Source: a virus
Direction: 5' to 3' (one strand)
DNA length: 64,000 nt
IMG/VR virus record: IMGVR_UViG_3300035670_000055
Location: 1-64,000 of that record
Below the pieces are notes generated by a model. That model was not told where the DNA came from and did not search any database. It saw only the letters and a list, made by a program, of their open reading frames with translations. Both the position numbers and the translations under genes were made by a program. Of the stretch, positions 21,696 to 45,711 are shown piece after piece; the stretch's first letter is position 1, and the number at the start of each line of letters is the position of its first letter.

Positions 21696-24600
21696 ATGCC
21701 AATTCTAGATAACGAATTAAATGGTAATATTTCTAATAGAGATTATACACAAGAAAGAGTAGACTTATCTTCAATTAATGGACCTATGCCAGGTAGATTA
21801 CCTAATCTTATCGCTTCTTATTCACCAGGTTATTCTGGAGACCCATCTCAATTTCAAGGAATTAGATTAAAAGATGTTAATTCTTTCACTGTAGGAAATG
21901 TTCCAAAAGGACCAAATTCTACATTTGGAATGGTTACAAGAAAAGAATTATTAGATAACTCTAGATACCCTTTATATGAAAGAGGAGTAAACTTAGAGAA
22001 TGTATATGGAAATGCTCAATCTGGTTGGGCACAGTTAGGAAATGGATTAGTTAAAATGGGATTAACTGCAGTAGGAACTTTTGCACAATCCTTTGCTACT
22101 CTTCCTGATACAATTTCTGCTATAAAAAATAGAAAATTTAGTGAATTAAGTAATCCTAATGGGTATGAATCTGATATAGATAATTGGTTAAAAAATATGG
22201 AAGATAGATTTCCAAATTATGTAACTGATTATGAAAAATCTAGAGGATTAGCAACAATGATTCCGTTTACAGCAGGTTCTGCTAATTTTTGGGGGGATAA
22301 AGTTATTAAAAATTTAGGATTCACTGTAGGAGCAATAGGTGGAGCACTTGCTCAAGATGCTATTGTTGGACTAGCAACAGAAGGTATTGGTGAAATACCT
22401 TTAATAGGAGCACAAATTGGAAAAGCTTCTTTATGGTTAAATAAATTATTTACAGGAACCAATAGATTAGAAGAAGCCTTATCTTTAGCAACAAAGGTTG
22501 GAGCCTCAGAGAGAAGAATAATGACATTAACGTCATTAGCTAGAGCTGCTGAAGCAGAAAAAATTACAACAGGATTAAGATATGGATTAAATTTATATGG
22601 TTCTTCTAGAACAGAGGCTGCTACAGAGGCAAGAGATGGTTATAGGCAAATCAAAGAAGAGTTAATAAAAGAATATAAATTAAATAATGGAGGAGCAGAA
22701 CCTACTTCTAATGATTTATATAAAATAGAGAAACTTGCAGAAAGTGGAATGAATGCTAGATTTGGAATAAATATGGCACTTCTCACTGTATCTAATGCTA
22801 TTCAATTTGATAATTTATTAAAATCATTTAATTCTGCCAAAAAAGGAATTGAATCTATTACCTCTGCTGAAGTAAAAGGATTAGGAAATATTAAATTAAA
22901 AGAAGGAAGTTTAGATGTTTTTGAAAAAGTTGTTCCTAATAGCACTTCTGGTAAAGTGTGGGAATATATAAAACCTACTGTTAAAAATATTTTTACAGAG
23001 GGTATATATGAAGAAGGAGGGCAATATGCTGCAGAAAAAGGAACTTTTGATTATTATACTAGGAAATATAAAAATTCTAAAGATTGGAACTGGACCAAAG
23101 AAGTATTAAATTCTACAGTAACAGGACTACAAGAACAGTTTGGATCAAAAGAAGGTATTGAGAATATGGTAATTGGAGCATTAACTGCTTCTATAACTTC
23201 TCCTATATCTAGCAGAATTGAGGATATTACAAAAGGAAAGTCAAAAGATCAAATGTTGCAATCTGTAATTAGTACAGTAAATCAATACGGGTTAACAGGA
23301 ATACTATCAAATAAATTTGAAGACACTGCAAATAGTGTAGCTATTGCCAAACAAATGAACGATGCAGTAAAATCAAATAATATATTTAAATATAAAAACT
23401 TAAAAGCTGATTTATTCTTTAATTTTGTAAATTCTCGTCTTTCGGTTGGAATGCATGATGTTACTATAGAGCAATTAAAGTTGTTAAAAGATCTTCCAAA
23501 AGAAGAGTTTGAAAAAACTTTTGGGATGAACTTTGATGAATCTAATAAATCTACTGTGGCTGAATATGTAGATTCATTAATTATAAAGGCAGATAATATC
23601 AAAGCAATAAATGATTCTATTCAATTCTCTTTTAAAAATCCATTCCAGAGAATAATAAATCCTACGAATGAGGAAGAAAAAAATGAACTTATTAATTATT
23701 CAAAGTTTGAAAATTGGAAAACAAATTTAGTTAATTTATCATATTTAGAAGAAGATACTACTTCTAGAACGAATAGCATTGAAAAACAAATTCAATCTAT
23801 ACATTCTGGTCTAAATAACTCTTTATTATCTTCTACATTTAATATAAAAGGATTATCTGAGTTCTCTTCAATTTATGAAGAAAAGGCTAATCAATTAGAA
23901 CAAAGTATTAATTCATTACCATTAAAAGATAGAGCTGCTGTTAGAAGTGAAGTAAAAAAACTTAGAACATTAGTTGAAAAAATAGGTATAATCAAATCTA
24001 ATAAATCAATAGATGCAAAGACACTTAAAGAATTATTAGAGTTTGAGCTATCTGGACAAAATTTTGAAAATGATATAAACTTAAGATTTGATCAAATAGA
24101 AAAATTAATGGATTTTGCAGGAGACTTAAATCTATTAAATTCCAGAAATGAAGCAATTAAAGAAGGAATTGAATTCTTAACTTCTGAAAAGGGTGTAGAC
24201 AAATTTATAAATGAAGATGAAGAAAACTTTAATGAAGATGAGGAAAAAACAAATGATGAAGTTTTAACATATGTAGATAATAAAGGAAATAATAAAACTA
24301 TTGATGTAGGAAGAGAATATCAACTTCCTAATATTAAATTGGCAAAAGTTCGTAAGTCTGGAGAAAAATATAAAGTTACCTCTCCAGATGGGAAAGTTAC
24401 GTTCTATGATACAAAAGAAGAAGCCAATTTAGCAAAAGATGAATTAAATATTGATTTTTCAGAACTATCAAAAGTTAAAATTCTTGCAATAAATAAAGAT
24501 GGTTCATTAAAAGTTGAAGATTTAGCAGGAAATATTCAAAACATTTCTAAACAGTCTTTGAACGGTTATGAATTTTTATTAAGTAAACAAGAAGAATTAT

Positions 24601-27479
24601 TAAAAACAAAAGATGTAGTTTCTAAAGACCAAGAAGAATTAGAAACTGTATCAGGAACTACAGAAACAATTAATGAAAATCAAGTTGATCATACAGAGGG
24701 TAAATTAAAAGAAGCATCTATATTATTTAAAAGTTCTATTACAGAATCAGAAGATTGGGATAATCCAGAACAATCTGCTCCACATATAAAAAGAGCTAGA
24801 ATATTCTTAAATAATGTAGCTAGATTTAAAAATAGAAAGAATTATAAAGTGATTCTTATTACTCCTAATAATGCTAAAACTGCTGGATTAGAAGGTATTG
24901 TACAATTGTCATATAAAAGAAGTATAGATACACCTTTGTCTGAAATAGAAGATGTTACAAATCCAGAGAATGGATTTATGGCACAGGTTTTTGTGTATAC
25001 GGATAAATCTGGTTCTTACTTTGTAAATGAGAAAGGAGAAAAGATTGGTAAAGTAGGTAAACAATTAGAAAATATAGAATCTAGTGGAATAGTATTTCAA
25101 ACTATGCCAGCAGCAACTTTATATAATAGTAAAGGAACTCCTAGATTTAGAAAAAATGAAGAGGAAAAAGCCAATAGAGAATTAGCTGCTTATAAAATAT
25201 TTAGAGAGAAAAAATTTGCAAATGATGCTATAGGACAAGCTTATCCTTTTAAAGTGTCTAGAGGAGTAAGAAGAAAAACAGAAATAAAAGAAGATAATCA
25301 TATAAGCTCTATTTTAGGAAAAGATGGAGATAAAATAATATCTTCTATTTCTTCTTTATTAGAAGTTGTTACAACAGGTAAAATTAGTTTTAATGGAGAA
25401 CTTATTAGTTTTCCAAAAGGAACAGTTGTATTTAAATATGGAGATACATTAGATTTTGCTAATAATAAACCATTAACAGAAAAACAAGCAAGCAGTGTAT
25501 ATGCTGTAATAGAAAAATTAGCAGACGATGTTTTAAATGGAAAGAGTATTCAGGGAGCATATTCTAATTTCTTACAAAATATTTTATACTGGAAATCGAA
25601 AGCAGAAACAACTTCTCCTAGCCAAATAAAAATAGATGTTAATACAATGTCTTTACATCTAGGAAAAGAATCATTTCCTATTTCTGAAATTTCTCAAAGA
25701 AAAGATGAAATTATAAATGCATTAAAACAAGCATTTATTACAGTGAATGACAAAACTTTAAAAGAAGGAGTTAATAAAACTTTTATCGAATATGCTTTAA
25801 ATACACAAGGAGAATTAAAACCTATCGTATGGAAGAACTATCAGGAATACTTATTGTCTGATAAATATCCAAATGGAGATAAGAGAGATGTTTCTGAAAC
25901 TCCATTAATTACTCATGCTCCAAAACCTACAGAACTATTTCCAAGTTCTTATGTACAGAGATATTCTACAATTGAAGAAGGAAAATTAGAATTTCCTTAT
26001 GAATTAATTAAAGAAGAACCTGTTCCAATAAAGCAAGAATCTTCTACAGAAACTAAAAAAGAACAACCTAAACAACAAAATAAATATAATCTAACACCTG
26101 GAATTGTAAACGGATATAAATTAAATGATGGAAGAGATATTCTATTCACAGGAGAAATGACTCATGAAGGTCCTAGTATATCTATACAACAAACTAGTGT
26201 ATTTAACGATATTGTTGCTAATAAGGTTACAATAAATGGTATTAGATTAAACATAGAAAAAATAGGAACTGATACATCAAAAATGTCTGATGCACAAGTT
26301 CTAGATTTTTATTTAAAATTACTTATTGTAAAAGATATAGAAAACCAAAATGAACAACAACAAACAACACAATCAGAACAGACACAAGAAACAGCACAAG
26401 GACAAACCACAGAAACCAATATACAATCCCAACAAGGAACAGTTGCAACAAGACAAGGTGTTTCTGCTGACATAGGACTTAAAAAAACTAGAGAACAAGC
26501 TATAAAAGAAGCAGAAGAAAAATGGGCTGAAAATGTTGACGATAGAGGATTTCCTATAGAATCGTTACAACCTATATTAGCAAAAATAAATAAAGAATAT
26601 GATGAATTAGAAGCTAATAATGTATCTAAAGAAACATCATCTTCAGAAAATCCTCCTGTTAATTTCTCTAAATTAAAAACCAAAGGGAAAGGAAAAGGTT
26701 TACAATTTAGAAAATTAGGTATTTCTGATTCTGAAAGAATGACAGAAGAAGATATAAAAGAATTTAAAAAGTGGCATGCTGAAAATGTTCCTAATATTCC
26801 TTTTGAAATATTGGAACAAATGATTGTTATAAACTCTACAGAATCTGCATGGGGTGTTTTTGAAGATGGTGTAGCAAAATTTGTAAGAGGTGGATTAAAA
26901 GGTACAGAATATCACGAAGTATTTGAAGCTATCTGGGCAAATTTACTAACAGAAACAGAAAAGAAAAATCTATTAGAAGAATTTAGAAATAAAAAAGGAA
27001 CATTTATAGATAGACAGTCTGGAGAAGAATATAATTACAATAGTCCTTCTGTAGATGATAATACGATTAAAGAAAGAATTGCTGATGATTTTGCTGATTA
27101 CAGACTTGGTAAAATTAAAAATAGTTCTATAAAAGGAATGATAAAAGAATTCTTTAACAGAATCATGAATTTCTTTAAATCATTTGTTACAAAAAAATCA
27201 TTAAAAGAAAAATTATTTGATGAAATAGATAAAGGTAGATTTAAAAATAAAAAGATTGTTTCTGAAGATAAATTTAAAAATGTTCCAGTAAAATCAGGAG
27301 TAAAAGAATTATTTAATGAAAATTCTGAATTAGCTTCTGTTGGTACACAACAACAATATTCAGCATATCTGGATACTGTATTTCCTGATAGTAAAGTTAC
27401 AGAAATAGATAATTCTTTGTATATTAGTGTTTTAGAAGATTTAAAATCTAACAAAATAATAGAAAAACAATGTTCATAA
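21696..27479 (+). CDS. giant ejected cargo protein (membrane-insertion N-terminus, zincin-like C-terminal region)
   Basis: 1927 aa; Gly/Ala-rich hydrophobic helices near the N-terminus; YHEVFE...ERIADDF zincin-like motif. Confidence 0.7.
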   Translation: MPILDNELNGNISNRDYTQERVDLSSINGPMPGRLPNLIASYSPGYSGDPSQFQGIRLKDVNSFTVGNVPKGPNSTFGMVTRKELLDNSRYPLYERGVNLENVYGNAQSGWAQLGNGLVKMGLTAVGTFAQSFATLPDTISAIKNRKFSELSNPNGYESDIDNWLKNMEDRFPNYVTDYEKSRGLATMIPFTAGSANFWGDKVIKNLGFTVGAIGGALAQDAIVGLATEGIGEIPLIGAQIGKASLWLNKLFTGTNRLEEALSLATKVGASERRIMTLTSLARAAEAEKITTGLRYGLNLYGSSRTEAATEARDGYRQIKEELIKEYKLNNGGAEPTSNDLYKIEKLAESGMNARFGINMALLTVSNAIQFDNLLKSFNSAKKGIESITSAEVKGLGNIKLKEGSLDVFEKVVPNSTSGKVWEYIKPTVKNIFTEGIYEEGGQYAAEKGTFDYYTRKYKNSKDWNWTKEVLNSTVTGLQEQFGSKEGIENMVIGALTASITSPISSRIEDITKGKSKDQMLQSVISTVNQYGLTGILSNKFEDTANSVAIAKQMNDAVKSNNIFKYKNLKADLFFNFVNSRLSVGMHDVTIEQLKLLKDLPKEEFEKTFGMNFDESNKSTVAEYVDSLIIKADNIKAINDSIQFSFKNPFQRIINPTNEEEKNELINYSKFENWKTNLVNLSYLEEDTTSRTNSIEKQIQSIHSGLNNSLLSSTFNIKGLSEFSSIYEEKANQLEQSINSLPLKDRAAVRSEVKKLRTLVEKIGIIKSNKSIDAKTLKELLEFELSGQNFENDINLRFDQIEKLMDFAGDLNLLNSRNEAIKEGIEFLTSEKGVDKFINEDEENFNEDEEKTNDEVLTYVDNKGNNKTIDVGREYQLPNIKLAKVRKSGEKYKVTSPDGKVTFYDTKEEANLAKDELNIDFSELSKVKILAINKDGSLKVEDLAGNIQNISKQSLNGYEFLLSKQEELLKTKDVVSKDQEELETVSGTTETINENQVDHTEGKLKEASILFKSSITESEDWDNPEQSAPHIKRARIFLNNVARFKNRKNYKVILITPNNAKTAGLEGIVQLSYKRSIDTPLSEIEDVTNPENGFMAQVFVYTDKSGSYFVNEKGEKIGKVGKQLENIESSGIVFQTMPAATLYNSKGTPRFRKNEEEKANRELAAYKIFREKKFANDAIGQAYPFKVSRGVRRKTEIKEDNHISSILGKDGDKIISSISSLLEVVTTGKISFNGELISFPKGTVVFKYGDTLDFANNKPLTEKQASSVYAVIEKLADDVLNGKSIQGAYSNFLQNILYWKSKAETTSPSQIKIDVNTMSLHLGKESFPISEISQRKDEIINALKQAFITVNDKTLKEGVNKTFIEYALNTQGELKPIVWKNYQEYLLSDKYPNGDKRDVSETPLITHAPKPTELFPSSYVQRYSTIEEGKLEFPYELIKEEPVPIKQESSTETKKEQPKQQNKYNLTPGIVNGYKLNDGRDILFTGEMTHEGPSISIQQTSVFNDIVANKVTINGIRLNIEKIGTDTSKMSDAQVLDFYLKLLIVKDIENQNEQQQTTQSEQTQETAQGQTTETNIQSQQGTVATRQGVSADIGLKKTREQAIKEAEEKWAENVDDRGFPIESLQPILAKINKEYDELEANNVSKETSSSENPPVNFSKLKTKGKGKGLQFRKLGISDSERMTEEDIKEFKKWHAENVPNIPFEILEQMIVINSTESAWGVFEDGVAKFVRGGLKGTEYHEVFEAIWANLLTETEKKNLLEEFRNKKGTFIDRQSGEEYNYNSPSVDDNTIKERIADDFADYRLGKIKNSSIKGMIKEFFNRIMNFFKSFVTKKSLKEKLFDEIDKGRFKNKKIVSEDKFKNVPVKSGVKELFNENSELASVGTQQQYSAYLDTVFPDSKVTEIDNSLYISVLEDLKSNKIIEKQCS

Positions 27480-28135
27480 AAGATATGCAAAGAGGGCAAT
27501 ACACAAATGTTTGTGGAATATATAAGTTGTATTTTGACAATGATAATAGATTTTATATAGGTTCTACAAATGATTTACAAGAAAGATTACAAGCACACAC
27601 AAGAGCTATAAATAAGCAAAAACATTTTAATGTATATTTTCAAAGATTATGTTTAAAATTAGGAGTAGAAAATTTAAAGTATGAAATACTTGTTAAATGT
27701 CCACAAGAGTATCTTTTAAAGATGGAACAATGGTTTATAGATAAATTAAAACCTGAATTGAATTTAGCAGAAACTGTTGGGAGACCTCCTATAAATAGAA
27801 AAAGAGGATATAAAATGTCAGAGGAAGCTAAACAAAATATAAGTAAAGCAAGAACTGGTCAAAAAATAGATAGAAGTAATTATGTTCATTCAGAAGAAAC
27901 TTTAAATAAAATAAGTCAATCTTTAAAAGGTAGAGTTATTATTGAAGAATGGAAACAAAAAATGAAGGAAGCTAAAGCTAAAGGAGGTAAATATTCCAAA
28001 TTAACTGTTAAACAAGTTAAAGAAATTAAATCTTTAGTTGGAACTAAAACAGATAAAGAAATTTCACAACTGTTTAATTGTTCAAGAGCTACTGTAAATC
28101 AAATCAAAAATAATAAAATCTGGAAAGAAGTATGA
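27470..28135 (+). mobile_element. free-standing GIY-YIG homing endonuclease with NUMOD3-like repeats and C-terminal HTH
   Basis: GIY...YIGS, R..H, EQWFI...LN; HSEET..KISQSLKG; overlaps both neighbouring genes. Confidence 0.9.
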
Positions 28136-31100: not shown

Positions 31101-34100
31101 TCCTGAAAAAATTAAAAAGCAATATGCTGAGATAGATGAAACCGATGCTATGTCTTGGATAGAGGATAATACATATAGAGAAGTTAATATTAAAAAAGGA
31201 CAATGGTCTGACGAAGCTGAAAAATGGCATCAATGGCAAATGGCTTTCACAAGACAAAACTATCCTAATTATAAATATACAAACGATGAATTAAGAAAAC
31301 ATGATGAAGAATTAGTAAATACCCCTGAGCCAGAACATCACATAGAACAAATTAAACCTATTGTAACTGGAAATAAATATGGTTCTAAAGAAATAAATCC
31401 TGTAGGAGATAAACTTTCACAAATGCCTATTTATTATAGTATGGTGAAAGGAACTAACTTGGAAAAATTATACATCAAGATGAAAAAAGAAGACCTTGGT
31501 TATGTAATTGTACAAACAGGAAGAAAATTTGGTTCTGAAGGAACAAATCCTATGTATGTAAATGGTAAGTTTAATGAAGAAGAATATACCAATACAATTG
31601 ATGTAGCATGGGATACTTATGGTGTAATTGTAGAAACTGCTACAGAAGGAGATAAAAAACAAACTAGAGGGTCTCAGATCCCAAAAGTAATTACAATGGA
31701 TATGTTTTCTAATGGTGAAGTTTCTGAGGGATATAATAAAGAAGAAATAATTGCTGCGAATAAAGAATTTAATTCTGCAGAAGAAGATTTAGCTAAATTT
31801 AGATATGAGGAATTGTTAGATAGATTAGGAATTATTGAAGAAGATGGAGAGTTTATTTCTACATCAAATAAAACTATTGCTGAAACATTACAAGAAGAAT
31901 TATTAAGAAGAGATTCTTCTGAAAATGTAAAAGATTCTTTAAAATTAAATGAAGATGAAGAATTTGAAATTCCTTTTGAAGCTTCTCCTTCATATGAGCA
32001 AATTAGAAGTATTCTTTATTCCATGGTGAATAAATCATTTATTTCTCCTAAGATGAATGGTGCTCCACACGTACAAGCTCCTTCTACAATGTTTGAACAA
32101 GAAAATAGAATATTAGCAATTAAAGAAAATGGTGTGTACAGATTAATTGTAACACAAAAACAATATAATTCTTTAAGTGCTGCAGATAAGAAAAATGCCA
32201 TTATTACTCCTGATACAGAAAAATATTTTAATGAATTGGGAGAAGAGCAAAAGAAAACTGCTGTTCTTACAGATAATACGCTGAAGTTCTACACTAAAGA
32301 ACAACCTTGGTGTGAAATCATGTTACCTAATTGGTTCAAAAATAAACTAAAGAAAGGAAAATTAAAAAATGCTTCTGATGAAGATATTATCAACTATCTA
32401 AATAATTCAAAAGAAGGACAAAGAATATTATCTGGAATGGCATTCCGTATTCCTACACAAGCACTTTCTTCTATTGAAAGATTTAAAGTGAAAGCTTTTC
32501 TTCCTCAGTATATGGGACATGCAGTGATTGTACCTACAGAGATTACAAAAAAATCTGGATCTGACTTTGATATTGATAAATTGAACATTTATTTAAAATC
32601 AATTTATGTAGATAATAGTGGTAATCCTAGAATTATTGAATACAAAGGTTCAGAAGAAGAAACAAAACAGTTTTATGCAGAAGTTTTTGAAAAAGGTTTT
32701 GATAAAAAGATTTCTAATAAATCAGAATTGTTAGAAGCAATTGATATTGTTTTATATAATTTAGATGATCCAAAAGATCTTCTTTCTAAACATGGAGATT
32801 ATATTATGTCTTTTAGAGATAAATTTTCTTCTCCTATGGATGTAAGAGATTATTTGGAAAATCAGTTAAAAAAAATAACTGAAGAAGAATATTACAATAA
32901 GAGAAAAGAAGATTATGTAAATAGAATGTATAAGAGTGCTTTAGAAAATAGATATTACGAAGCATTAGAAAGATTATTCGAGCTACAACCTATTGAAAAA
33001 ATTCTTTCTCCTGTAGATGATGGAGGATTAGAAGATGTTTCTAAAAACCTAGATAAATTAAGAAACGATAATGAATCTGCAATAAAAGGAAGATTATTAA
33101 ATAGAAACTATATGTCTAATCTAAGACATGCATTTATCGTAGGAAAAGCATGGGTTGGTATTGCTGCTGTAAATATTACAGGATTATCATTAAGACAAAA
33201 ATCTAAAGTGTATCTAGATCCTAATAGAATTTCTTTGTTAGGAAAAAGAGAACAAGATTTTGTTAAAAACTTAGATATTGCTCTTCCACATAATACAATG
33301 GTATTAGAGAATGGACAAAAGGTAGTTTCTTTATCTGGATTAAAAACAGCAGATGGAACACAGTATCTATCTGATAGGTTCTCTGGATATGCTACAGCGT
33401 TTGTAGATATTGCAGCAAATCCATTCATTTCTAAGATTATTAAGAGTGATATTGTTATTTCTACATTTATGTTATTAGAAGCTGTAGGTGCTGGTAATAA
33501 AGGGGTGTATTTCTTAAATCAACCAATTATAGAAGAGTATTTAAAATTATTAGATAAAGAAGGAACTAAATCTGTAGTAAATGAAAATAACATTAAAAAA
33601 GTAAAAGAATTATTTCCTGCTAATGAAAAAGATATAAAATATGTAAAAATATCTCCAGAAGGATTAGAACAAAATATTGCAGACTATTATAAAAATGGTA
33701 AATTAAGACCTACAAAAAATGCAGAACAGCAAAAAATATTAGATGAATTTATTAAATATAAAATATTAGCAGACCAATTGTTTGAGTTTACACAAGCGAC
33801 AAACTATGACACTACTAGATTAACAGGTGTAGATTCTTTATATAAAAAAGAATTACTTACTAAAAAAGTAAGAGAAAGAAATATTATTGCTAATATAGAT
33901 GGTGTATTAAATGAAACTTTTATTGGTAATCTTACTAACTTGCTATCAAAATCTACACAAGCAATGGGAACTATCTTTAAATTAGATGAACCAAAAATCA
34001 GAGCTTATGTATTAGATACAGTGAAAAGATATGCAACTAAACCATTTATGTCTAATGATGATTATGAAAGAATAACTAATTTAATTAGAAGTTCTTTCTT

Positions 34101-35253
34101 AGATTATATTATTCAATCTCATTCTACATTAAATAAAGAAATTTCTGATTTATTATTAAATGAATCTACAAATATTGCTACACAATTAGAACTAATGAAA
34201 TCTAAATATCCAGGTATATCAATTCTACAAGATTTTGAAGTGGTATCTGGAAATAGAGAAAATAGTGCTAAGACAGTTAAGTTAAAAGTTAATTTAAAAG
34301 GAGATGTATTTGCTGAGAATCATTATATTGCTAAAATGAATGAGTTAAGAGATTATAATACGGAACTTAATGAATTCTACAATAATTTAATTAGAGTGGC
34401 TATATTACAAGGAAATTCACAATCTGCTATTTCTTTTAAAAATATTATTCCTGTACAAGATTATGCTAAAATTATTACACCAATTATAAATAATATAATG
34501 CCTGGTGCAAGATTGGATAATTTTACAAAATCAATGTTTGAAAGAAATAGTTTTACAAATGAAAATGTATTTGTTCCAGCTAAAATATTTTATGCTAAAG
34601 AAAGTCAAGGTGGTGGTTTATGGCTTCCTGCATTTGATTTTAGCAAATATAAATTTAATTCTGATGAAAGACAATTACTAAAACTTTCTGAGAAATTTAA
34701 TTTTACACAAGTTAGTTCTGATTTTGTAAAAGTTCCTAGAGTGTTCAAAACTAAGGTGGGAGTAGTTGATGAATTTGGAGATACAGACACACAAGAAAGG
34801 TACATAGATATATTATCTGGAAAAGTAATGAGACCAGAAGACTGGAAACAAGCTAAAGAAAAAGGAGACCAATCTTTAAATGACGTGTTTTATTACAAGA
34901 AAGTATATACAAATGAAGTAGACCAATTTGGAGAAAGAATTCCATTAAAAATATGGAATGGAGATGGAAAGGTACTAGCATTTGAACAAGTGTATAAACT
35001 AATGAATGTATATGGAGATAGTTTTAGAGCTGCTGAATATCCTTCTTCTAACGTAAGTTCTATATTTGATAATGGTTCTATTAAAACAAGAGAATTAACA
35101 GATGAAGAAATTGTAGATGCTATAAAAAATCCTGGTAAGAAAAAGGAAATTGTTACTGATTCTTTGAAAGATGAAGAAAATTCATTATCTTTACCAACAG
35201 AAGAAGATCTTGGACTAAATACAGATTTATCACAAGATGATTTTAAATGCTAA
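28132..35253 (+). CDS. virion DNA-dependent RNA polymerase (crAss-like) with N-terminal ADP-ribosyltransferase-like domain
   Basis: RIPTQ...GSDFDIDKL catalytic motif (DFDID 32563-32577); ATAFVDIA; N-terminal YHG..F..F..G.GFYF. Confidence 0.9.
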   Translation: MSCIITYKGQKYSEEQFKEYFINNKQEFITSIANNKDVVDSFKRKMEGIDFVFSQSPELASIGSKAQYLQYLSTIFKTSQVKDIVYHGSDTKIDRFDKKFIGTGAGLHLGRGFYFDISKDSAKFYTETVANKTLKSYNPSIINLTNPQESKALLRNPDYVNYDGVKDITGQLVVFEPEQIHILGSQADIEGFKEFVSKNGSSTTPQYRVVEGLSEEQVNDLSDDIIGTIAELIYGREDYTKQLLFNPEEISGKGIFAEIKRRHEEAGLIDAIGENRWNQIKERAIDKLRTLGVSFEEDVDINDENASQKEYEREAFVVDWKKTSSAAIRFSLATIPQRVQMNQANSLELVFPDNENDGFVLSESLGDYGGYKLVDFSRVFATLMDKLSNTNSPEEFVRKLVELAETDTTYLSVFARLGGNLSSKSIDFSNMTNKYDVKYFTQFYNLFSKQKPETLIQYINDGEIYSNNANLFSAVTEITNGWINNIKALSKSEDSLISYDRNQKIYKIDSEKIKSFPIRKASDRINLLNAIGINFDLQTYNLLSDEPETIGKRRVSQKEQFDTAVDKISEYLGSNPDIMTLKGNTLGISGPLRTLSRLYIVATNPNQDSTFFGVNNQRKGSYAENNAASFFENDFNESETIDELLEKRPELNGYFSKGSQILKKGGLFFDEDGNRIAKLKLLTIEGLKNIDEGKNKGISKLTLSERATQEINQNLNGNYYVLVPGDGSTEWMMNLGNIISFEEVEAGVYSKKLEEIFINGYLMDEVNLVLFGKNNTVTVKKKSKELRFMKDILSDKQVKEIEDLLSKDATTLEQIEKYIKDNKKELVNSVEQFVKNVNEETFNNLINSSQIEQIEEDEFVLNKFDSEFIKEKGLSTASKERVDNFINFLNLNYIINNIEYHKFIFGDPYQYKIKGDGSLDETKRIKMYLSPRRRLLDLREFNDIFNIDYNKVGDIELDKKDPTYHTFKSYTKTATLSDVEVNGSVSRGDFPEKIKKQYAEIDETDAMSWIEDNTYREVNIKKGQWSDEAEKWHQWQMAFTRQNYPNYKYTNDELRKHDEELVNTPEPEHHIEQIKPIVTGNKYGSKEINPVGDKLSQMPIYYSMVKGTNLEKLYIKMKKEDLGYVIVQTGRKFGSEGTNPMYVNGKFNEEEYTNTIDVAWDTYGVIVETATEGDKKQTRGSQIPKVITMDMFSNGEVSEGYNKEEIIAANKEFNSAEEDLAKFRYEELLDRLGIIEEDGEFISTSNKTIAETLQEELLRRDSSENVKDSLKLNEDEEFEIPFEASPSYEQIRSILYSMVNKSFISPKMNGAPHVQAPSTMFEQENRILAIKENGVYRLIVTQKQYNSLSAADKKNAIITPDTEKYFNELGEEQKKTAVLTDNTLKFYTKEQPWCEIMLPNWFKNKLKKGKLKNASDEDIINYLNNSKEGQRILSGMAFRIPTQALSSIERFKVKAFLPQYMGHAVIVPTEITKKSGSDFDIDKLNIYLKSIYVDNSGNPRIIEYKGSEEETKQFYAEVFEKGFDKKISNKSELLEAIDIVLYNLDDPKDLLSKHGDYIMSFRDKFSSPMDVRDYLENQLKKITEEEYYNKRKEDYVNRMYKSALENRYYEALERLFELQPIEKILSPVDDGGLEDVSKNLDKLRNDNESAIKGRLLNRNYMSNLRHAFIVGKAWVGIAAVNITGLSLRQKSKVYLDPNRISLLGKREQDFVKNLDIALPHNTMVLENGQKVVSLSGLKTADGTQYLSDRFSGYATAFVDIAANPFISKIIKSDIVISTFMLLEAVGAGNKGVYFLNQPIIEEYLKLLDKEGTKSVVNENNIKKVKELFPANEKDIKYVKISPEGLEQNIADYYKNGKLRPTKNAEQQKILDEFIKYKILADQLFEFTQATNYDTTRLTGVDSLYKKELLTKKVRERNIIANIDGVLNETFIGNLTNLLSKSTQAMGTIFKLDEPKIRAYVLDTVKRYATKPFMSNDDYERITNLIRSSFLDYIIQSHSTLNKEISDLLLNESTNIATQLELMKSKYPGISILQDFEVVSGNRENSAKTVKLKVNLKGDVFAENHYIAKMNELRDYNTELNEFYNNLIRVAILQGNSQSAISFKNIIPVQDYAKIITPIINNIMPGARLDNFTKSMFERNSFTNENVFVPAKIFYAKESQGGGLWLPAFDFSKYKFNSDERQLLKLSEKFNFTQVSSDFVKVPRVFKTKVGVVDEFGDTDTQERYIDILSGKVMRPEDWKQAKEKGDQSLNDVFYYKKVYTNEVDQFGERIPLKIWNGDGKVLAFEQVYKLMNVYGDSFRAAEYPSSNVSSIFDNGSIKTRELTDEEIVDAIKNPGKKKEIVTDSLKDEENSLSLPTEEDLGLNTDLSQDDFKC

Positions 35254-35268
35254 AATAAATATTAAACT

Positions 35269-38200
35269 ATGGATTTTTGTAAAATTGGAATAGATAACGC
35301 AGTAAATAGAGCTATTAAAAATAATCCAGATTATTCTTATGATGAAAAAAGTGGAATTATTGAAATAAGTGATAATCCTAACAAAGATTTAAATCAATAC
35401 ACATCAATTAGATTTGCAAAAGGAATAGCTGCACAAATTAATAAATTTATAAACGATGGAGAAAAGGCAATTGGAAGAATTGCCTATTCTTCTTTTTATA
35501 AAGGAAGAGGAGTTGTAAGAATTGTTCCTACTAATTCACAATTAGAATTAATTAATTCTAATGAAGAAAAAAAATATATAGAATTAGAAGATAAAATACA
35601 AGAAGAATTATTACAAGAAGAATTTAGAAAACTTGCAGAAGAATCTAATACATATCTGGATGAAGAAAAAGAAGTAGTTTATGAAGATCCTTTATTACAA
35701 TTATCAGATGAAAATTTAAAACCTGTCTCTCCAAAAATGTTAAAATTTGTAAAAGAATTTATTAAACAGATTGGTGTAGATTATCAAAAGGTTGATAAAA
35801 TTGTTGTAAATGGAAAAGTTATAGATGCTAATGGTATTGCTCGAATGATGAGTAAACTTATTCAAGTGGTTGAAGGAAAAGAATCTGTAGCTCTTCCAGA
35901 AGAAGCTATGCACTTTGCTGTAGAGATTATAGAACAAACTAATCCAAAATTATTTGAACAAATGTTGAAAGATATAAATGGAGAGGAAATTTATAAAGAT
36001 GTATTAGAACAATATGGTAAAAATCCATATTATCAAAAAGATGGTAAACCAGATATAAGAAAATTAAAAAAAGAAGCTATTGGTAAATTACTAGTAGATA
36101 AAGTTTCCAGCATAAAAGCACAAACTTGGTGGGATAAAATTGTAAAATTCTTAAAAGAACTATTTAATAAACCACAGATGGATGGTGTAGATAGTCTTAC
36201 ACAATTTGCAGAAATGATTGTATCTGGAGAAGATTTTGGCACTGTAAATGATATTAAATCTTTAGAAGATTATTTCCAATTAAATGAACAAGATAAAGTA
36301 TTTAATAAATTAAAAGATTTAGATAATCAAATAACAAAAGAAGATGATGGTGTAAATGATGATGGAGATCCAAGACAAAGTTATTTTATAGGTGATAAAA
36401 AAATTAAATATAGAGTTACAGATTTTGTAAGTGATTGGTATTTAAAAATATTTGGTAATGAACAAACAGAATATCAAAAAAGACTAGCAGAATTAAAAGC
36501 AGAAGAAGGAACAAAAGGACATTATCATTTTGAAAAAGCATTTGATACATTTGTAGATTCTGATACAGGATTACTGAGAGAAGATTTTTTAGAAGATGAT
36601 GATCAATATTTATCTACTTTATCACAGGTAGATAAAGATGTGTATGCTACATTAAAAGAAAATTTAAGAGATAGATTATTATCTTTTCCTGAAGGAAGTA
36701 AGTTCTTAAAAGAAACAAAAATATATGATGGTAAAGAAACTGCTGGTACAGTGGATTTATTAATTGTAGAACCTTCTGGTAAAGTTAGTATTATTGACTG
36801 GAAATTTATAGACATAAATACTGATAAATATGAAGATGTTCCTTGGTATAAAGTTAAAGCTTGGAATCTTCAAATGGAAAAATATAGAGGTATTCTTACT
36901 AAGAATTATGGAGTAAAAGAAGAAGATTTTAAGCAAACAAGAATGATACCTATTCTTGCTATGTACACAGATGCTGATTATCAGGGACAAAATCTTCCTA
37001 AATTAAGAGGAATTAAAATAGGTTCTGTAAATGTTGATAATATTAATGAAGATTATTTACTATATGTAGGATTTAAAGAAAGAACAGGGGATGAAAAAAT
37101 TGATAATTTATTAGATAAAATGAATAGTGTTTATTCTAAAATATCTAATGAAAAAGTATCTCCACAAGATAGACCTTTAAAAAATGAACAACTAAACTCT
37201 TTATATAAGGCTATTAGACACTTAGAAATAAAAAAAGATATTATCCCTTTAATTAATCAAGGAAAGGTGCTAAATAAACAAGTTAGTAATTTTATTAAAA
37301 AATACAATGATAATATAAAAGATAAATCTAAAGAAGAATTAGAAAAAGAAACAATTAATGAGTTTGCTGGAATGATTAGAGTGCACATGGAAGCTCTACA
37401 ACCATATTTAGGTATAAGGCAATTAAAGTATTTATTAAATGAAACTAATCCTGAATTTAATGAAATAAAATCAAAATTAAGAGATACGATAGAAGATGTA
37501 CAGGATTATCTGGATCAACTAGAATCTATAGATAAAGAATTTGGTAAAAAGTTTGTAGGAGCTAGTTACACAGCAGAAAAAGTTGTAAAAGGTATTACTA
37601 GATGGTTTGGTAATGCTGCTACAATTCAATTAGAGAATTTACAAAGATTATTTACATTAGCTAATGAAGCAACAGCAATTTCTAATTTCGAAGTGAGCGA
37701 TGAAGTAAAAAAATTAGAAGAACTTAAAGAAAAATATATTAATTGGGCTAGGTCAAAAGGATTATCTACAAAAGATTATTTTAAAATGATAATAAAGAAT
37801 GACAAAAATGAGCTGATTAATCAATACGATTCTAATTTTTATAAAGAATTAAAAACTGCAGTTGCTAAAAAAGATTTTAGATGGATATTAGATAATGTGG
37901 ACAAAGTCGAAGTTATTAAAAAAATAAAAGAACAAGAAGAAAGAGAAATAGACGCAGCTTTAAACTATCCTGTTGTTGGTTCTGAGGAGCATGTAAAAGC
38001 AGAAATCAATAGAAAAATAGCCAAGATTAAAGATAAATATGATGTTTCTACATCTACATCTAAAGGTTGGTTACAAGAGCAATTTATAAAAATACCAACG
38101 GAGAAATGGGAATCTCAGGAATGGAAAACATTACATGAAAAAGATTCTTCTGGAAATTATGTAAATCAACCAGCTATAGATTTTTATAATTATATTGTAG

Positions 38201-40266
38201 AAAAAAATAAGTTATATAAAGAAATAGGATATTTAACAGGTAAATCAGCTAGAACATTTCTTCCTTGGATAAGAAAAGGATTTTTAGAAGGAGTAATATT
38301 AGATGGAAAACCACAAGGTTCTCTAGATCAGTTTTTAAGAAATATTTCTGTAGATGAAAATGAAACTGCTTATGGACAGATAGATCCTATTACAGGAAAA
38401 GTAATTGATACTATTCCTATTCATTTTGTAAATCAATTAGATGGAAAATATTCTACAGATTTATTTTCTACAATGTTTTTATATAATGAATTTGCAATTA
38501 AATATAAAAATCTTTCTCAAATAGAAGAACAAGCTAGATTATTGTTAAGGGCAGAACAAAATAAACAATCTATAATGACTTCTATGTTTGGAAACGTTAT
38601 AAAAAAGGGAGAAGGATTTGATTTTAATAATAATAATTTAGAAAATACAAAACTTTATGAATCATTCATGAAGTCTATTATTTATCAACAAAAATATATT
38701 AATGATTCTGAATTTGACATAATAATTGGTAAAATATCTGGATTTGGTAAAAAATTTAATGATAAATTAGGAATGAAAATATTTCCTGAAGCTATGGAAT
38801 CTAGATATTTAACAGTAAATAAAACATTAGATCAAATGAATAGAGCTTTCCAGTTACAGGCGTTAGGACTAAATGCTCTTTCTTCTATTTCTAACATGTT
38901 TGGTGGTACAGCTAATGCAATGATTAATGCTGGTAAATATTTTACTAAAGATGACTATTTAAAAACACAAGCTAAATTTCTTTGGGAAAAATTACAAGGA
39001 GATGAAAATGCTGGTAAAATATTAGCTGCTGTAGATTATTTTGCTCCATTTGTAGATAATTATAACAAAGAAGCTAAAAAGAAATTATCTCTTATGAAAT
39101 TAACTCCAGAAGGGATACAAGATTTTCTTATGGTTGGTCTTAGAAAAGGAGATGAAATGATTCAATATATGAATGCTTTTACGTTTATAAAGAATATGAT
39201 TGTTGTAGATGGACAGGTAAAAAATGTTAGAGAATATTTAAGAAGTACAGATGAGTACAAAGATTTTTATGCTGGTAATGCAGAGCAGAGAAAGGAAAGA
39301 AAAGAAAAATTTGAAGAAGATGTTAATAAGTTAATTGAAGAAAAAGGATTATTAAATGTCTCTAAACTATCAGAAAATGGCACATTAGAAATACCTGGTA
39401 TAGAAAGAAAATCTGATTCTATAATAGAACAAAGAAGAATCATACAACAGTTTACTTCTGATGCATTAGGTTCTTTAACAGAAGAAAATAGAAGATTGAT
39501 TAACATGAATGTATATGGTTCTTCTTTAATGGTATTTAAAAACTGGATTCCTAGATTGGTAGATGTTCGTGTAGGAGGATTAAAGTATAATGCTGCATAT
39601 CAAGCTTATGAATGGGGTAGATATAGAACATTTTATAGTATGCTTATTCCAGATATATTAAAGACTATTAAGAGCCTCACAGGAGCTGTAACTGGAAATA
39701 GTGATGTTTGGTTAGAACAAGTTAGATCAATGTTTGAAAAACAAAAAGAACAATATTTTAATAGTACAGGGAAAGAATTAAAAATGACAGAATCAGAATT
39801 TATTTCACTTGTAAATCAAAATATTAAAAACCAAGCATTAGATTTAATGATTTTAACAACATTATTAGCAATTGGTACAGTAGCAAAAGCTATGGCTCCA
39901 GATGATGATGAAGATGAAAATGTAAAAAATGTTTATAAATTTATGTTAAAAGCTACAGATAAAGTGACAGATGAGGTTTCTTATTTTTATAATCCTATGA
40001 CACCATTTAATTTAATTTCTACAAAAGGTGTGTTTCCTTCTGTAGGAATTTTAAATAATTATGCTAAATTCTTAAGAGATTTCGCTTTAGAAAATTATGG
40101 AATGATTATTAATGATGATGAAATTATAGATGATGCTAAACCAATTAAATATTTAATGAAATCTTTTCCTGTATCATCACAGGCTGCTTCTTATTTACCA
40201 ATGTTCTATCCAGAACTAGCAAAAGATCTTGGTATTAGAATGCAATCTACTTATGGTGTTAGATAA
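35269..40266 (+). CDS. giant ejected cargo protein with zincin-like and PD-(D/E)xK nuclease-like domains
   Basis: LPEEAMHF..EAIGK; GT..H..FE, AGTVDLL...IIDWK...Q..Y; hydrophobic C-terminal helices. Confidence 0.75.
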   Translation: MDFCKIGIDNAVNRAIKNNPDYSYDEKSGIIEISDNPNKDLNQYTSIRFAKGIAAQINKFINDGEKAIGRIAYSSFYKGRGVVRIVPTNSQLELINSNEEKKYIELEDKIQEELLQEEFRKLAEESNTYLDEEKEVVYEDPLLQLSDENLKPVSPKMLKFVKEFIKQIGVDYQKVDKIVVNGKVIDANGIARMMSKLIQVVEGKESVALPEEAMHFAVEIIEQTNPKLFEQMLKDINGEEIYKDVLEQYGKNPYYQKDGKPDIRKLKKEAIGKLLVDKVSSIKAQTWWDKIVKFLKELFNKPQMDGVDSLTQFAEMIVSGEDFGTVNDIKSLEDYFQLNEQDKVFNKLKDLDNQITKEDDGVNDDGDPRQSYFIGDKKIKYRVTDFVSDWYLKIFGNEQTEYQKRLAELKAEEGTKGHYHFEKAFDTFVDSDTGLLREDFLEDDDQYLSTLSQVDKDVYATLKENLRDRLLSFPEGSKFLKETKIYDGKETAGTVDLLIVEPSGKVSIIDWKFIDINTDKYEDVPWYKVKAWNLQMEKYRGILTKNYGVKEEDFKQTRMIPILAMYTDADYQGQNLPKLRGIKIGSVNVDNINEDYLLYVGFKERTGDEKIDNLLDKMNSVYSKISNEKVSPQDRPLKNEQLNSLYKAIRHLEIKKDIIPLINQGKVLNKQVSNFIKKYNDNIKDKSKEELEKETINEFAGMIRVHMEALQPYLGIRQLKYLLNETNPEFNEIKSKLRDTIEDVQDYLDQLESIDKEFGKKFVGASYTAEKVVKGITRWFGNAATIQLENLQRLFTLANEATAISNFEVSDEVKKLEELKEKYINWARSKGLSTKDYFKMIIKNDKNELINQYDSNFYKELKTAVAKKDFRWILDNVDKVEVIKKIKEQEEREIDAALNYPVVGSEEHVKAEINRKIAKIKDKYDVSTSTSKGWLQEQFIKIPTEKWESQEWKTLHEKDSSGNYVNQPAIDFYNYIVEKNKLYKEIGYLTGKSARTFLPWIRKGFLEGVILDGKPQGSLDQFLRNISVDENETAYGQIDPITGKVIDTIPIHFVNQLDGKYSTDLFSTMFLYNEFAIKYKNLSQIEEQARLLLRAEQNKQSIMTSMFGNVIKKGEGFDFNNNNLENTKLYESFMKSIIYQQKYINDSEFDIIIGKISGFGKKFNDKLGMKIFPEAMESRYLTVNKTLDQMNRAFQLQALGLNALSSISNMFGGTANAMINAGKYFTKDDYLKTQAKFLWEKLQGDENAGKILAAVDYFAPFVDNYNKEAKKKLSLMKLTPEGIQDFLMVGLRKGDEMIQYMNAFTFIKNMIVVDGQVKNVREYLRSTDEYKDFYAGNAEQRKERKEKFEEDVNKLIEEKGLLNVSKLSENGTLEIPGIERKSDSIIEQRRIIQQFTSDALGSLTEENRRLINMNVYGSSLMVFKNWIPRLVDVRVGGLKYNAAYQAYEWGRYRTFYSMLIPDILKTIKSLTGAVTGNSDVWLEQVRSMFEKQKEQYFNSTGKELKMTESEFISLVNQNIKNQALDLMILTTLLAIGTVAKAMAPDDDEDENVKNVYKFMLKATDKVTDEVSYFYNPMTPFNLISTKGVFPSVGILNNYAKFLRDFALENYGMIINDDEIIDDAKPIKYLMKSFPVSSQAASYLPMFYPELAKDLGIRMQSTYGVR

Positions 40267-45390: not shown

Positions 45391-45711
45391 ATGAACAATA
45401 ATATCTTTGAAGATCAGGTTAAAAAAGAATTAAAAAATATGGACCAACGTCTCTATGAGTTGGAGGAAAAAATGACCTCTATTGACACAAAACTAAGCCA
45501 AGTTGTAGATGCTATTTTAGGAAACCCATTAACTAAATCGGGAGGTTTTATAAAAGACATCGAAATAATGAAAGAAAAAATTCAAGAATTAGAAAACAAA
45601 ATACAATTTCAAGAAGAATTTAAAAAGAAAATTACATGGACTTTTGCCATTGTTGTTACTGTTGCTCTTATTTTAGAGTATTTTGTAAATATTTATTCAA
45701 GTATAACATAA
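45391..45711 (+). CDS. coiled-coil protein with C-terminal TM helix (holin/lysis-associated)
   Basis: Heptad coiled coil plus one hydrophobic helix; upstream of the amidase. Confidence 0.55.
   Translation: MNNNIFEDQVKKELKNMDQRLYELEEKMTSIDTKLSQVVDAILGNPLTKSGGFIKDIEIMKEKIQELENKIQFQEEFKKKITWTFAIVVTVALILEYFVNIYSSIT

What the first reader, a model, noticed from the sequence alone, without database searches (positions are those of the whole stretch)
21696..40266. Giant ejected proteins have Cys almost only at adjoining termini: a head-to-tail linked chain?
Seen by manual scan: the 1927-aa protein has its only Cys in the final KQCS*. The 2373-aa RNAP begins MSC and ends FKC*, with one internal Cys. 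The 1665-aa protein has its only Cys in MDFC. The outer ends of the series lack Cys, and the three preceding internal proteins show none, whereas the tail proteins are Cys-rich. Inference: C-to-N disulfides or metal bridges join the cargo into one ordered ~6000-aa thread that is pulled through the tail and released in the reducing cytoplasm.
Basis: partly seen in the sequence, partly recalled or inferred. Interest (0 to 1): 0.8.

Follow-up and report, generated by a model that had tools for sequence, protein, structure and literature searches.

The report
Terminal cysteines link crAss cargo proteins
The giant injected proteins of this crAss-like phage, its RNA polymerase among them, have almost no cysteine except one at each end that faces the next protein. 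This rule holds across the whole phage order and most likely marks disulfide links that tie the proteins end to end.

Summary
In the window, 8858 residues of six internal proteins hold 5 Cys where about 116 would be expected. Four of the five lie within 4 residues of facing termini (KQCS*/MSC, FKC*/MDFC).

I surveyed about 180 related loci, covering the window's clade and the phi14:2-like, crAss001-like and gut Crassvirales families.
- 121 of 135 distinct junctions between giant proteins carry a Cys on both sides.
- Fully fused 5500-5600-aa polyproteins have no Cys at all.
- Two-piece forms have 1+1 Cys and three-piece forms 1+2+1.
- A gene interrupted by a group I intron has no Cys at the break.
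- The pair persists when the partner genes lie on opposite strands.

Cys loss in ejected proteins is already published for N4-like phages. A disulfide between a near-C-terminal Cys and Cys5 of consecutive ejection proteins has been seen by cryo-EM in cyanophage A4, whose sequences show the same signature. I found no paper describing the rule in Crassvirales. The disulfide itself is inferred here, not shown.

This scan has noted the same rule on at least 68 other genomes.

The parts
12902..15754 (+). Internal (cargo-type) protein, 950 aa, no Cys
   Evidence: Its orthologues in relatives also have no Cys.
15758..18949 (+). Internal protein, 1063 aa, with a Peptidase_M15 / endolysin-like domain, no Cys
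19038..21680 (+). Internal protein, 880 aa (MASFKD...), no Cys. It is the last protein before the chain, and its junction with the next protein has no Cys.
21696..27479 (+). Giant cargo protein A, 1927 aa. Its single Cys is at 1926 (codon 27471-27473).
   Evidence: It is fused to the RNAP in 43 relatives.
27273..28731 (+). Inserted cassette, absent from the fused relatives. It comprises the tail module (A residues ~1860-1927, ending KQCS*), the GIY-YIG gene, the head module (MSCIITYKG...) and an ART-PolyVal domain (B residues 84-150).
27470..28135 (+). Free-standing GIY-YIG + NUMOD3 homing endonuclease, 221 aa. It overlaps the end of A and the start of B.
   Evidence: Near-identical genes sit in the same kind of junction in L192, L194 and L195. 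No group I intron was found.
28132..35253 (+). Giant cargo protein B, the virion RNA polymerase, 2373 aa. Cys3 is at 28138-28140, Cys1394 at 32311-32313 and Cys2373 at 35248-35250. DFDID is at 32563-32577.
35269..40266 (+). Giant cargo protein C, 1665 aa. Its single Cys is at 4 (35278-35280), and it has no Cys at its C-terminus, so it ends the chain.
6617..12028 (+). Crassvirus muzzle protein, 1803 aa, 22 Cys. It serves as synteny anchor and as a Cys-normal comparison.
   Evidence: PF25731, E = 4.5e-27.
40362..42785 (+). Downstream Cys-normal protein, 807 aa, with an N-terminal Cys cluster (4, 9, 17). It is not part of the chain.
   Evidence: Relatives have Cys at 5, 10, 18, (28, 49).

Best explanation
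Proteins A, B (the virion RNA polymerase) and C are pieces of one ancestral giant cargo polyprotein of Crassvirales. The virion packages this polyprotein and delivers it into the host.

Like the ejection proteins of N4 and T7, they are kept free of Cys, because an internal cross-link would hinder passage through the tail and the envelope. Wherever the polyprotein is encoded in separate genes, the upstream piece keeps one Cys within its last few residues and the downstream piece keeps one Cys at position 3-7. In the oxidised, mature virion these two thiols form an inter-protein disulfide, from the C-terminus of piece n to the N-terminus of piece n+1. The bond stands in for the missing peptide bond and ties A-B-C head to tail. 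It is probably reduced once the proteins reach the cytoplasm.

Shown: the sequence rule, how widely it holds, and its coupling to protein breaks. Shown elsewhere: the same signature is a real disulfide in cyanophage A4. Inferred: the bond in crAss virions, when it forms and breaks, and that its purpose is ordered, continuous ejection.
For: 1. Window: 5 Cys in 8858 residues, 4 of them at facing termini.
2. In the 43 relatives of the RNAP at 37-48% identity, A and B are fused. They have no Cys at the fusion point and keep only the C-terminal Cys, and the next protein has a single Cys at position 3-4.
3. In alignments of the last 160 residues of B and the first 160 residues of C from 30 relatives, the Cys is the only invariant column; the surroundings are hypervariable.
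4. Survey: 121 of 135 distinct giant-giant junctions have Cys on both sides, against 18 of 239 other junctions, and 15 of those 18 are small or truncated links of the same chain. Cys frequency is 0.043% inside the giants, 7.4% in their terminal windows and 0.55% in other ORFs.
5. All four architectures obey Cys = 2 x junctions. ABC fused has 0 Cys in 5520-5639 aa (L117, L121, L126). AB|C has 1+1 (L093, L086). A|BC has 1+1 (L068). A|B|C has 1+2+1 (phi14:2).
6. On an RNAP-core tree the split/fused state changes at least 8 times. Six of six independent pairs gain or lose the N-terminal Cys together with the split.
7. Gene adjacency is not needed. crAss001 gp47 and its homologues lie on the opposite strand and keep the C-terminal Cys. 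In L061 protein C lies 6 kb away.
8. Negative control: crAss001-like gp50 genes interrupted by a group I intron (RF00028, E = 2.7e-9) have no Cys at the break.
9. Of 164 distinct loci, 129 read in the order C-only, both, N-only.
10. Virion disulfides exist in crAss001 (PMC10172136).
11. In cyanophage A4, cryo-EM shows a Cys1715(gp27)-Cys5(gp26) disulfide in the pre-ejectosome (PMC12002296). I checked that these are the only Cys of the 1717-aa and 1114-aa proteins.
12. The co-fold of the B tail with the C head gave weak support. The score was 0.45 against a best control of 0.07. That mark was reached by 58 of 80 solved complexes and 2 of 110 mismatched pairs. At 0.60 or under it was reached by only 7 of those 80 and by both mismatches that passed. 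The runs agree in at least 67% of contacts and the partner's pLDDT is at least 68.
Against: - No experiment shows the bond in any Crassvirales virion, and the published crAss001 and phi14:2 work does not mention cargo Cys.
- Virions assemble in a reducing cytoplasm and gut phages live in an anoxic habitat. No phage sulfhydryl oxidase or thioredoxin was found in this genome.
- The sequence around the Cys is so variable that it is unclear how the right ends find each other.
- Some junctions break the simple rule: L096, L111, L115, and the YkuD-type trios in L044, L192, L202 and L225, where the linking Cys lie about 65 residues from an end or in a CxxC at 40-45.
- The tail-module Cys of the window's protein A is internal in L044 and L045, so it is not always terminal.
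- N4 ejects three separate Cys-free proteins without any such link, so a tether is not a general requirement.
- The co-variation of junction types may simply reflect linkage of the two gene ends on the DNA.
Confidence: 0.6

Rival explanations
1. The chemistry is the same but the purpose differs. The disulfide staples a docked interface inside a structured internal core, as in a pre-ejectosome. It serves assembly, stoichiometric co-packaging or capsid stability, not a linear thread that is pulled through the tail.
For: - In A4 the C-terminal helix of gp27 inserts into a cleft of gp26, and the disulfide only stabilises this contact within a pentameric ring.
- Many crAss C-termini look like amphipathic helices (..ILKSIC*..IKKCK*) and many N-termini form a conserved small motif (CPNKN..EW).
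- The co-fold gave weak support for a specific contact: 0.45 against a best control of 0.07, with the counts given under the best explanation.
Against: - Fused forms need no such staple and have no Cys at the equivalent place.
- The sequence context is hypervariable.
- No ordered crAss cargo core was resolved in crAss001.
Confidence: 0.2
2. The two terminal thiols, together with neighbouring side chains or the free termini, jointly bind a metal ion. The bridge between consecutive proteins is then a metal and not a disulfide.
For: The parity and pairing evidence is the same. A metal site could form in a reducing cytoplasm.
Against: - Each side has only one Cys, and no conserved His, Asp or Cys partner lies nearby.
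- The one solved example is a disulfide.
Confidence: 0.07
3. The terminal Cys do not pair with each other. Each reacts with a third party: a Cys-rich virion protein such as a portal, tail or fibre N-terminal Cys cluster, or host periplasmic Dsb enzymes after ejection.
For: - Cys-rich N-termini occur in the neighbouring tail-type proteins.
- A role for periplasmic Dsb has been proposed to explain Cys avoidance (PMC11445570).
Against: - The count is strictly even.
- The first piece has only a C-terminal Cys and the last piece only an N-terminal one.
- Fully fused forms have no Cys at all.
None of this is expected for anchoring to a third partner.
Confidence: 0.08
4. The Cys have no function. They ride along with mobile junction cassettes or arise from start/stop context.
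For: In the window the junction lies in a mobile cassette shared with L044, L045, L192, L194 and L195.
Against: - The Cys is the only invariant residue in otherwise unalignable termini.
- The pair is kept on unlinked genes.
- It is present in all families tested.
- The position relative to the stop or start codon varies (0-8 and 3-7 residues), so no fixed nucleotide context applies.
Confidence: 0.02

Closest known systems
Cyanopodophage A4 (Anabaena phage A-4L) ejection proteins gp27 and gp26: Cys1715-Cys5 disulfide in the pre-ejectosome (PNAS 2025, PMC12002296)
   Same: Two consecutive giant ejection proteins each have a single Cys, one 2 residues from the C-terminus (..NPCQF*) and one at position 5 (MSKHC). 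I verified this on KF356198. Cryo-EM shows the bond between them.
   Different: - BLASTP finds no sequence similarity to the window's proteins.
- A4 has one link, no RNA polymerase and a different phage family (Saffermanviridae).
- The paper does not describe a general rule or any link to gene splitting and fusion.
Cys suppression in ejection proteins of Schitoviridae (N4 gp50/51/52, DEV gp71-73; PMC11445570)
   Same: The giant virion RNAP and its companion ejection proteins are almost free of Cys. N4 gp50, gp51 and gp52 have no Cys, and T7 gp15 and gp16 have none. The published rationale is passage through the envelope and periplasm.
   Different: These phages have no terminal Cys pairs. Their proteins are wholly Cys-free and apparently not linked.
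Crassvirales virion RNAP cargo module: phi14:2 gp66 with its neighbours, and crAss001 gp47/gp50/gp49 (Drobysheva et al., 10.1101/2020.03.07.982082; Bayfield et al., PMC10172136)
   Same: The proteins are homologous, share the DFDID motif and lie in the same synteny after the muzzle gene. They are split in some phages and fused into one polyprotein in others. They are detected in virions and are thought to unfold partly for ejection.
   Different: Those papers do not mention the cargo Cys, although the phi14:2 and crAss001 sequences obey the rule. They propose proteolytic cleavage of the fused forms, not linkage of the split forms.
Genes split by free-standing homing endonucleases ('genes in pieces', such as nrdA split by mobE in phage Aeh1; cited from my own knowledge)
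   Same: A free-standing GIY-YIG endonuclease gene lies between two halves of what is one gene in relatives.
   Different: Here the insert also carries flanking coding modules that end and begin with the linking Cys, plus an extra ART-PolyVal domain. The same endonuclease family recurs at Cys-bearing junctions in other phages.
Redox-sensitive inter-subunit disulfides of virions that are reduced on entry (polyoma- and papillomavirus capsids; cited from my own knowledge), and the tail and gp57 disulfides of crAss001 (PMC10172136)
   Same: Disulfides form in the released particle, and the reducing cytosol undoes them.
   Different: Those bonds link structural shell or tail subunits. They do not join the ends of cargo proteins.

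Membership tests
Crassvirales virion RNAP cargo module | DFDxD catalytic motif in a giant protein | tested here: met
   DFDID at residues 1478-1482 of the 2373-aa protein. The motif is described in the Drobysheva preprint.
Crassvirales virion RNAP cargo module | Sequence homology to known crAss RNAPs | tested here: met
   tblastn matches 76 phage records, all of them Crassvirales or crAss-like: phi14:2 at E = 7e-11, cr1_1 at 8e-15. phmmer against PDB chains found nothing at E <= 0.001.
Crassvirales virion RNAP cargo module | Synteny: muzzle gene, then Cys-free internal proteins, then the giant proteins | tested here: met
   PF25731 crAss_MUZ at 6617-12028. The order is as in crAss001 gp44-gp47.
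Crassvirales virion RNAP cargo module | Packaged in the virion and delivered to the host | not testable with these tools
   Known for phi14:2 and crAss001 only.
Head-to-tail disulfide of ejection proteins (A4 gp27-gp26 type) | A sole or nearly sole Cys within a few residues of the upstream C-terminus, and one at position 3-7 of the downstream protein | tested here: met
Head-to-tail disulfide of ejection proteins (A4 gp27-gp26 type) | Homology to A4 gp27/gp26 | tested here: not met
   BLASTP gives no hit better than E = 0.28. The likeness is one of design, not of family.
Head-to-tail disulfide of ejection proteins (A4 gp27-gp26 type) | The bond is observed in the particle | not testable with these tools
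   This needs non-reducing gels, mass spectrometry or cryo-EM.
Cys-suppressed ejection proteins | Cys frequency far below that of the proteome | tested here: met
   0.056% against 1.31% in the window, and 0.043% inside the giants across the survey.
Split intein / protein trans-splicing | Hint/intein domain flanking the break, with a Cys as first intein residue and a C/S/T at +1 | tested here: not met
   Pfam finds no intein or Hint domain in A, B or the endonuclease. Only 1 residue follows the Cys in A. The in-frame continuation in L045 is a YkuD domain, not an intein.
Group I intron with homing endonuclease | Catalytic intron RNA around the endonuclease ORF | tested here: not met
   No Rfam match in 27000-28700 at E <= 0.1, and the ORFs overlap on both sides. 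The positive control L171 matched RF00028.
Free-standing GIY-YIG homing endonuclease | GIY-YIG catalytic domain plus NUMOD3 DNA-binding motifs, inserted relative to uninterrupted relatives | tested here: met
   PF01541 at 1.2e-9 and PF07460 at 9.2e-9. The insertion point is mapped against the fused relatives.

The most novel reading that the evidence does not exclude
Terminal Cys 'clasps' make the crAss cargo a modular chain. Any protein carrying an N-terminal and a C-terminal link Cys can be threaded in as an extra bead.

Examples are the 219-703-aa ART-domain links in L044, L045, L194 and L195. In YkuD-type links the clasp is a CxxC.

A family of GIY-YIG homing endonucleases targets these junctions and spreads ready-made clasp-plus-effector cassettes between distantly related phages. 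The window holds such an event caught inside an otherwise fused gene.

The chain would fix the order and stoichiometry of injection, and the host cytoplasm would dismantle it by reduction.
Probability: 0.3. Interest if true: 0.85.

Novelty: new variant of a known kind. Interest (0 to 1): 0.7.

Why it matters
How podophages move megadalton loads of folded giant proteins, including a 2000-3500-residue RNA polymerase, through a narrow tail remains an open question for crAss-like and N4-like phages.

A conserved covalent tether between separately encoded cargo proteins would give a concrete and testable mechanism for co-packaging and for ordered, continuous ejection. It would also explain why gene fusion and gene splitting are freely interchangeable in this module.

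The rule has practical uses too.
- It corrects start-site annotation. The crAss002 gp33 start is probably 32 codons too far upstream.
- It tells protein-level splits from intron interruptions.
- It identifies which proteins belong to the injected chain.

Cultured systems exist (phi14:2, crAss001), so the decisive experiments are simple.

Tried and rejected
- **Near-identical DNA:** megablast of the region against phage records found nothing.
- **Intein or trans-splicing at KQCS*/MSC:** rejected. There is no Hint domain, and the in-frame continuation in L045 is a YkuD L,D-transpeptidase domain.
- **Group I intron around the endonuclease:** rejected.
- **Phage-encoded redox enzymes in the 115-kb genome:** no thioredoxin (PF00085; its control genomes matched). 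The Erv1/Alr search (PF04777) is uninformative, because its controls also failed to match.
- **Solved structures:** phmmer of the RNAP against PDB chains gave no hit.
- **Homology of A4 gp26-29 to the window's proteins:** none.
- **'The Cys pair arose de novo when the endonuclease split the gene':** only partly tenable. The tail-module Cys already exists, internally, in L044 and L045, and the head module is 66-82% identical in phages whose RNAPs barely align. The junction therefore came in ready-made.
- **Co-variation of C-terminal and N-terminal junction types:** Fisher P = 1e-6, and phylogenetic pairs give a median P of 0.012. I do not count this as evidence of co-evolution, because the two gene ends are adjacent on the DNA in most genomes.
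- **Native-chemical-ligation-like peptide joining:** considered and set aside. The Cys is never the first residue, and 2-6 variable residues precede it.
- **Literature:** searches for a prior description of the rule in Crassvirales found none.
Full report
**What is in the window**

The plus strand carries, in order:
- a crassvirus muzzle gene (6617-12028, PF25731; 22 Cys in 1803 aa);
- a 287-aa ORF;
- three internal proteins of 950, 1063 (Peptidase_M15 domain) and 880 aa that contain no Cys;
- protein A (21696-27479, 1927 aa);
- a 221-aa GIY-YIG/NUMOD3 homing endonuclease (27470-28135);
- protein B (28132-35253, 2373 aa);
- protein C (35269-40266, 1665 aa);
- Cys-normal tail-type genes.

B is the crAss-type virion RNA polymerase. 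It carries DFDID at 1478-1482 and matches 76 Crassvirales records by tblastn, phi14:2 included.

A has Cys1926 only (KQCS*). B has Cys3, Cys1394 and Cys2373 (MSC ... FKC*). C has Cys4 only (MDFC).

In the window alone, Cys is 1.31% of the other ORFs and 0.056% of the six internal proteins. Five Cys are seen where about 116 would be expected. The chance that four of five fall within four residues of the facing ends is about 3e-10.

**Relatives of the window's own clade**

A scan of IMG/VR with B returned 45 loci at 37-48% identity. In 43 of them A and B are a single protein of 3655-5140 aa. In most, that protein has only one internal Cys (the counterpart of Cys1394, and often not even that) plus one Cys in its last 1-4 residues. 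The next protein has a single Cys at position 3 or 4.

Most of these fused proteins have no Cys where the window is split. L005 and L007 each have one unpaired Cys somewhere near that position (2048 and 1980), and I did not map these against the split site.

I aligned the last 160 residues of B and the first 160 residues of C from 30 relatives. The Cys is the only invariant column in each alignment, and everything around it is hypervariable or not even homologous.

**The rule holds across the order**

Cultured and curated phages:
- phi14:2: gp78 has one Cys and it is the last residue. The RNAP gp77 has Cys3 and Cys2179 only. gp76 has Cys3 only.
- crAss001: gp47 has only Cys2339 of 2341. gp50 has Cys5, Cys1334 and Cys2404. 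gp49 has only Cys5. gp47 lies on the opposite strand from gp50 and gp49.
- cr108_1, cr1_1, cr124_1, cr8_1, cr118_1 and crAss002, from Steig-, Suoli- and Intestiviridae, show the same pair.

Two further scans added 132 loci. Counting each distinct junction once gave these results:
- 121 of 135 junctions between two proteins of at least 1000 aa have a Cys within the last 9 residues upstream and within the first 7 residues downstream.
- Most of the 14 exceptions are the end of the chain (protein C followed by a fibre-type protein) or its beginning.
- Only 18 of 239 other junctions have both Cys, and 15 of those 18 are small or truncated links of the same chain.
- Cys frequency is 0.043% inside the giants, 7.4% in their terminal windows and 0.55% elsewhere.
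- Of 164 distinct loci, 129 read along the strand as 'C-terminal Cys only', then zero or more 'both', then 'N-terminal Cys only'.

**Coupling to breaks in the polypeptide**

All four architectures occur, and each has two Cys per junction.

| Architecture | Cys count | Examples |
|---|---|---|
| ABC fully fused | 0 in 5520-5639 aa | L117, L121, L126 |
| AB\|C | 1+1 | L093: 5322 aa with Cys5321, then 1108 aa with Cys4 |
| A\|BC | 1+1 | L068 |
| A\|B\|C | 1+2+1 | phi14:2 |

On a FastTree of the RNAP core (105 non-redundant sequences), the A|B split state changes at least 8 times. The N-terminal Cys of the RNAP-bearing protein follows it: 52 split with Cys, 45 fused without, 1 split without. Six of six phylogenetically independent pairs go the same way.

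A useful negative control comes from crAss001-like strains whose gp50 is interrupted by a group I intron (RF00028, E = 2.7e-9). They have no Cys at that interruption, as expected if the two parts are joined at the RNA level.

Adjacency on the DNA is not required. In crAss001-like and other gut lineages the A homologue on the opposite strand keeps its near-terminal Cys as its only Cys. In L061 protein C, with its MSC start, lies 6 kb downstream.

**What is known, and what that does to the reading**

Cys avoidance in ejected proteins is already published for N4-like phages, with passage through the periplasm as the proposed reason (PMC11445570). I confirmed no Cys in N4 gp50, gp51 and gp52 and in T7 gp15 and gp16. 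That half of the finding is therefore not new.

I read the paper (PMC12002296). [quoted passage not shown] This lies inside the capsid-borne pre-ejectosome.

On the A-4L record, gp27 (1717 aa) has only Cys1715 and gp26 (1114 aa) has only Cys5. The same sequence signature is thus a real head-to-tail disulfide in one solved case. The A4 proteins show no BLAST similarity to the window's proteins.

crAss001 virions also contain several disulfides in the tail and at the portal vertex.

I found no paper that mentions the cargo Cys of Crassvirales.

**Mechanism**

The best-supported reading is a reversible disulfide between the C-terminal end of one piece and the N-terminal end of the next. It replaces the peptide bond that fused relatives have.

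An end-to-end bond is the one cross-link that leaves the assembly a linear chain. That fits with the removal of every other Cys.

The co-fold of the B tail with the C head gave only weak support. The score was 0.45 against a best control of 0.07. That mark was reached by 58 of 80 solved complexes and 2 of 110 mismatched pairs. At 0.60 or under it was reached by only 7 of those 80 and by both mismatches that passed. The runs agree in at least 67% of contacts and the partner's pLDDT is at least 68.

Points against, or still open:
- There is no direct evidence in any crAss virion.
- Assembly takes place in a reducing cytoplasm, and no thioredoxin gene was found in this genome. The Erv1/Alr oxidase search was uninformative because its controls also failed.
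- The flanks are hypervariable, so it is unclear how the right ends meet.
- N4 manages without a tether.

**What is particular to this window**

The A|B junction lies in an insert of about 1.46 kb (27273-28731) that the fused relatives lack. They read straight through from ..GKFKETKLSERAKALS to PEYRAIQGLTEEQ... The insert consists of:
- a 68-aa tail module ending ..NKIIEKQCS*;
- the GIY-YIG gene, whose ATG overlaps the Gln-Cys codons;
- a head module, MSCIITYKGQKY..;
- an ART-PolyVal ADP-ribosyltransferase-like domain at B residues 84-150.

The head module is 66-82% identical in L044 and L045, whose RNAPs barely align with the window's. Near-identical endonuclease genes sit in the same position, between ..C(x)* and MSC(I/V)ITYK.., in L192, L194 and L195. 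There, small ART-type proteins of 219-289 aa carry a Cys at both ends.

So the junction came in ready-made with a mobile cassette. It did not evolve on the spot.

The tail-module Cys is internal in L044, L045, L192, L202 and L225. It is followed by about 65 residues ending ..GLVIPK(N/D). The next protein there is a YkuD L,D-transpeptidase protein with a CxxC at 40-45 and no terminal Cys. These trios break the simple 'terminal' rule but still contain an even number of candidate link Cys.

**Verdict**

This scan has noted the same rule on at least 68 other genomes. I scored it on what I tested here.

Noticed in passing
window 27470-28135; L192:3339-4004, L194:1166-1846, L195:3339-4004: A family of GIY-YIG/NUMOD3 endonucleases of about 221 aa, all ending ..NNKIWKEV, recurs exactly between a gene ending in ..C(x)* and a gene starting MSC(I/V)ITYK.. 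in distantly related phages. This suggests that it homes to cargo-chain junctions.
   Followed up: partly
window 28381-28581 (B residues 84-150): An ART-PolyVal (ADP-ribosyltransferase of polyvalent proteins) domain sits at the N-terminus of the RNAP protein. It is absent from the 43 fused relatives at this place, but the C protein of L020 has one near its N-terminus.
   Followed up: partly
window 40362-42785, and downstream proteins in L004-L043: The protein after the cargo chain has a conserved N-terminal Cys cluster: Cys 4, 9 and 17 in the window, and 5, 10, 18, (28, 49) in relatives, as in MNxxCxxxPCP... It may be a metal or disulfide knot at a fibre or tail attachment end.
   Followed up: no
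window 45636-46319: A 227-aa ORF begins MDFCHCCYCCSY, with six Cys in its first 17 residues. It has no Pfam match.
   Followed up: no
window 47391-47933: A second homing endonuclease (NUMOD4 + HNH_3) ends ..NNKIWKHV, like the C-terminus of the GIY-YIG protein. The two appear to share a DNA-binding tail.
   Followed up: partly
L171:14927-15847 (also L165, L170, L180): Some crAss001-like strains carry a group I intron in the RNAP gene gp50 (RF00028, E = 2.7e-9). Other strains (L148, L160, L164) have in-frame, Cys-free insertions of about 140-340 aa in gp50.
   Followed up: partly
L190:13621-26358 (crAss002 gp33): The annotated start (MVLDYS..) is probably 32 codons too far upstream. An internal MSC start would fit the rule and pair with gp32, which ends ..SFVCS*.
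   Followed up: partly
L117:2315-18877, L121:1418-18337, L126:686-17596: These are single polyproteins of 5520-5639 aa without any Cys.
   Followed up: yes
L044:11114-12988, L045:2495-7267, L096:13194-16679, L202:2112-4001, L225:2113-3999: YkuD L,D-transpeptidase domain proteins are inserted in the cargo chain. Their N-termini duplicate the last ~30 residues of the preceding protein (..GLVIPK..). They carry a CxxC at 40-45 in place of terminal Cys.
   Followed up: partly
L186 (T7 gp14): T7 gp14 has a single Cys at position 2 (MCW..), while gp15 and gp16 have none.
   Followed up: no
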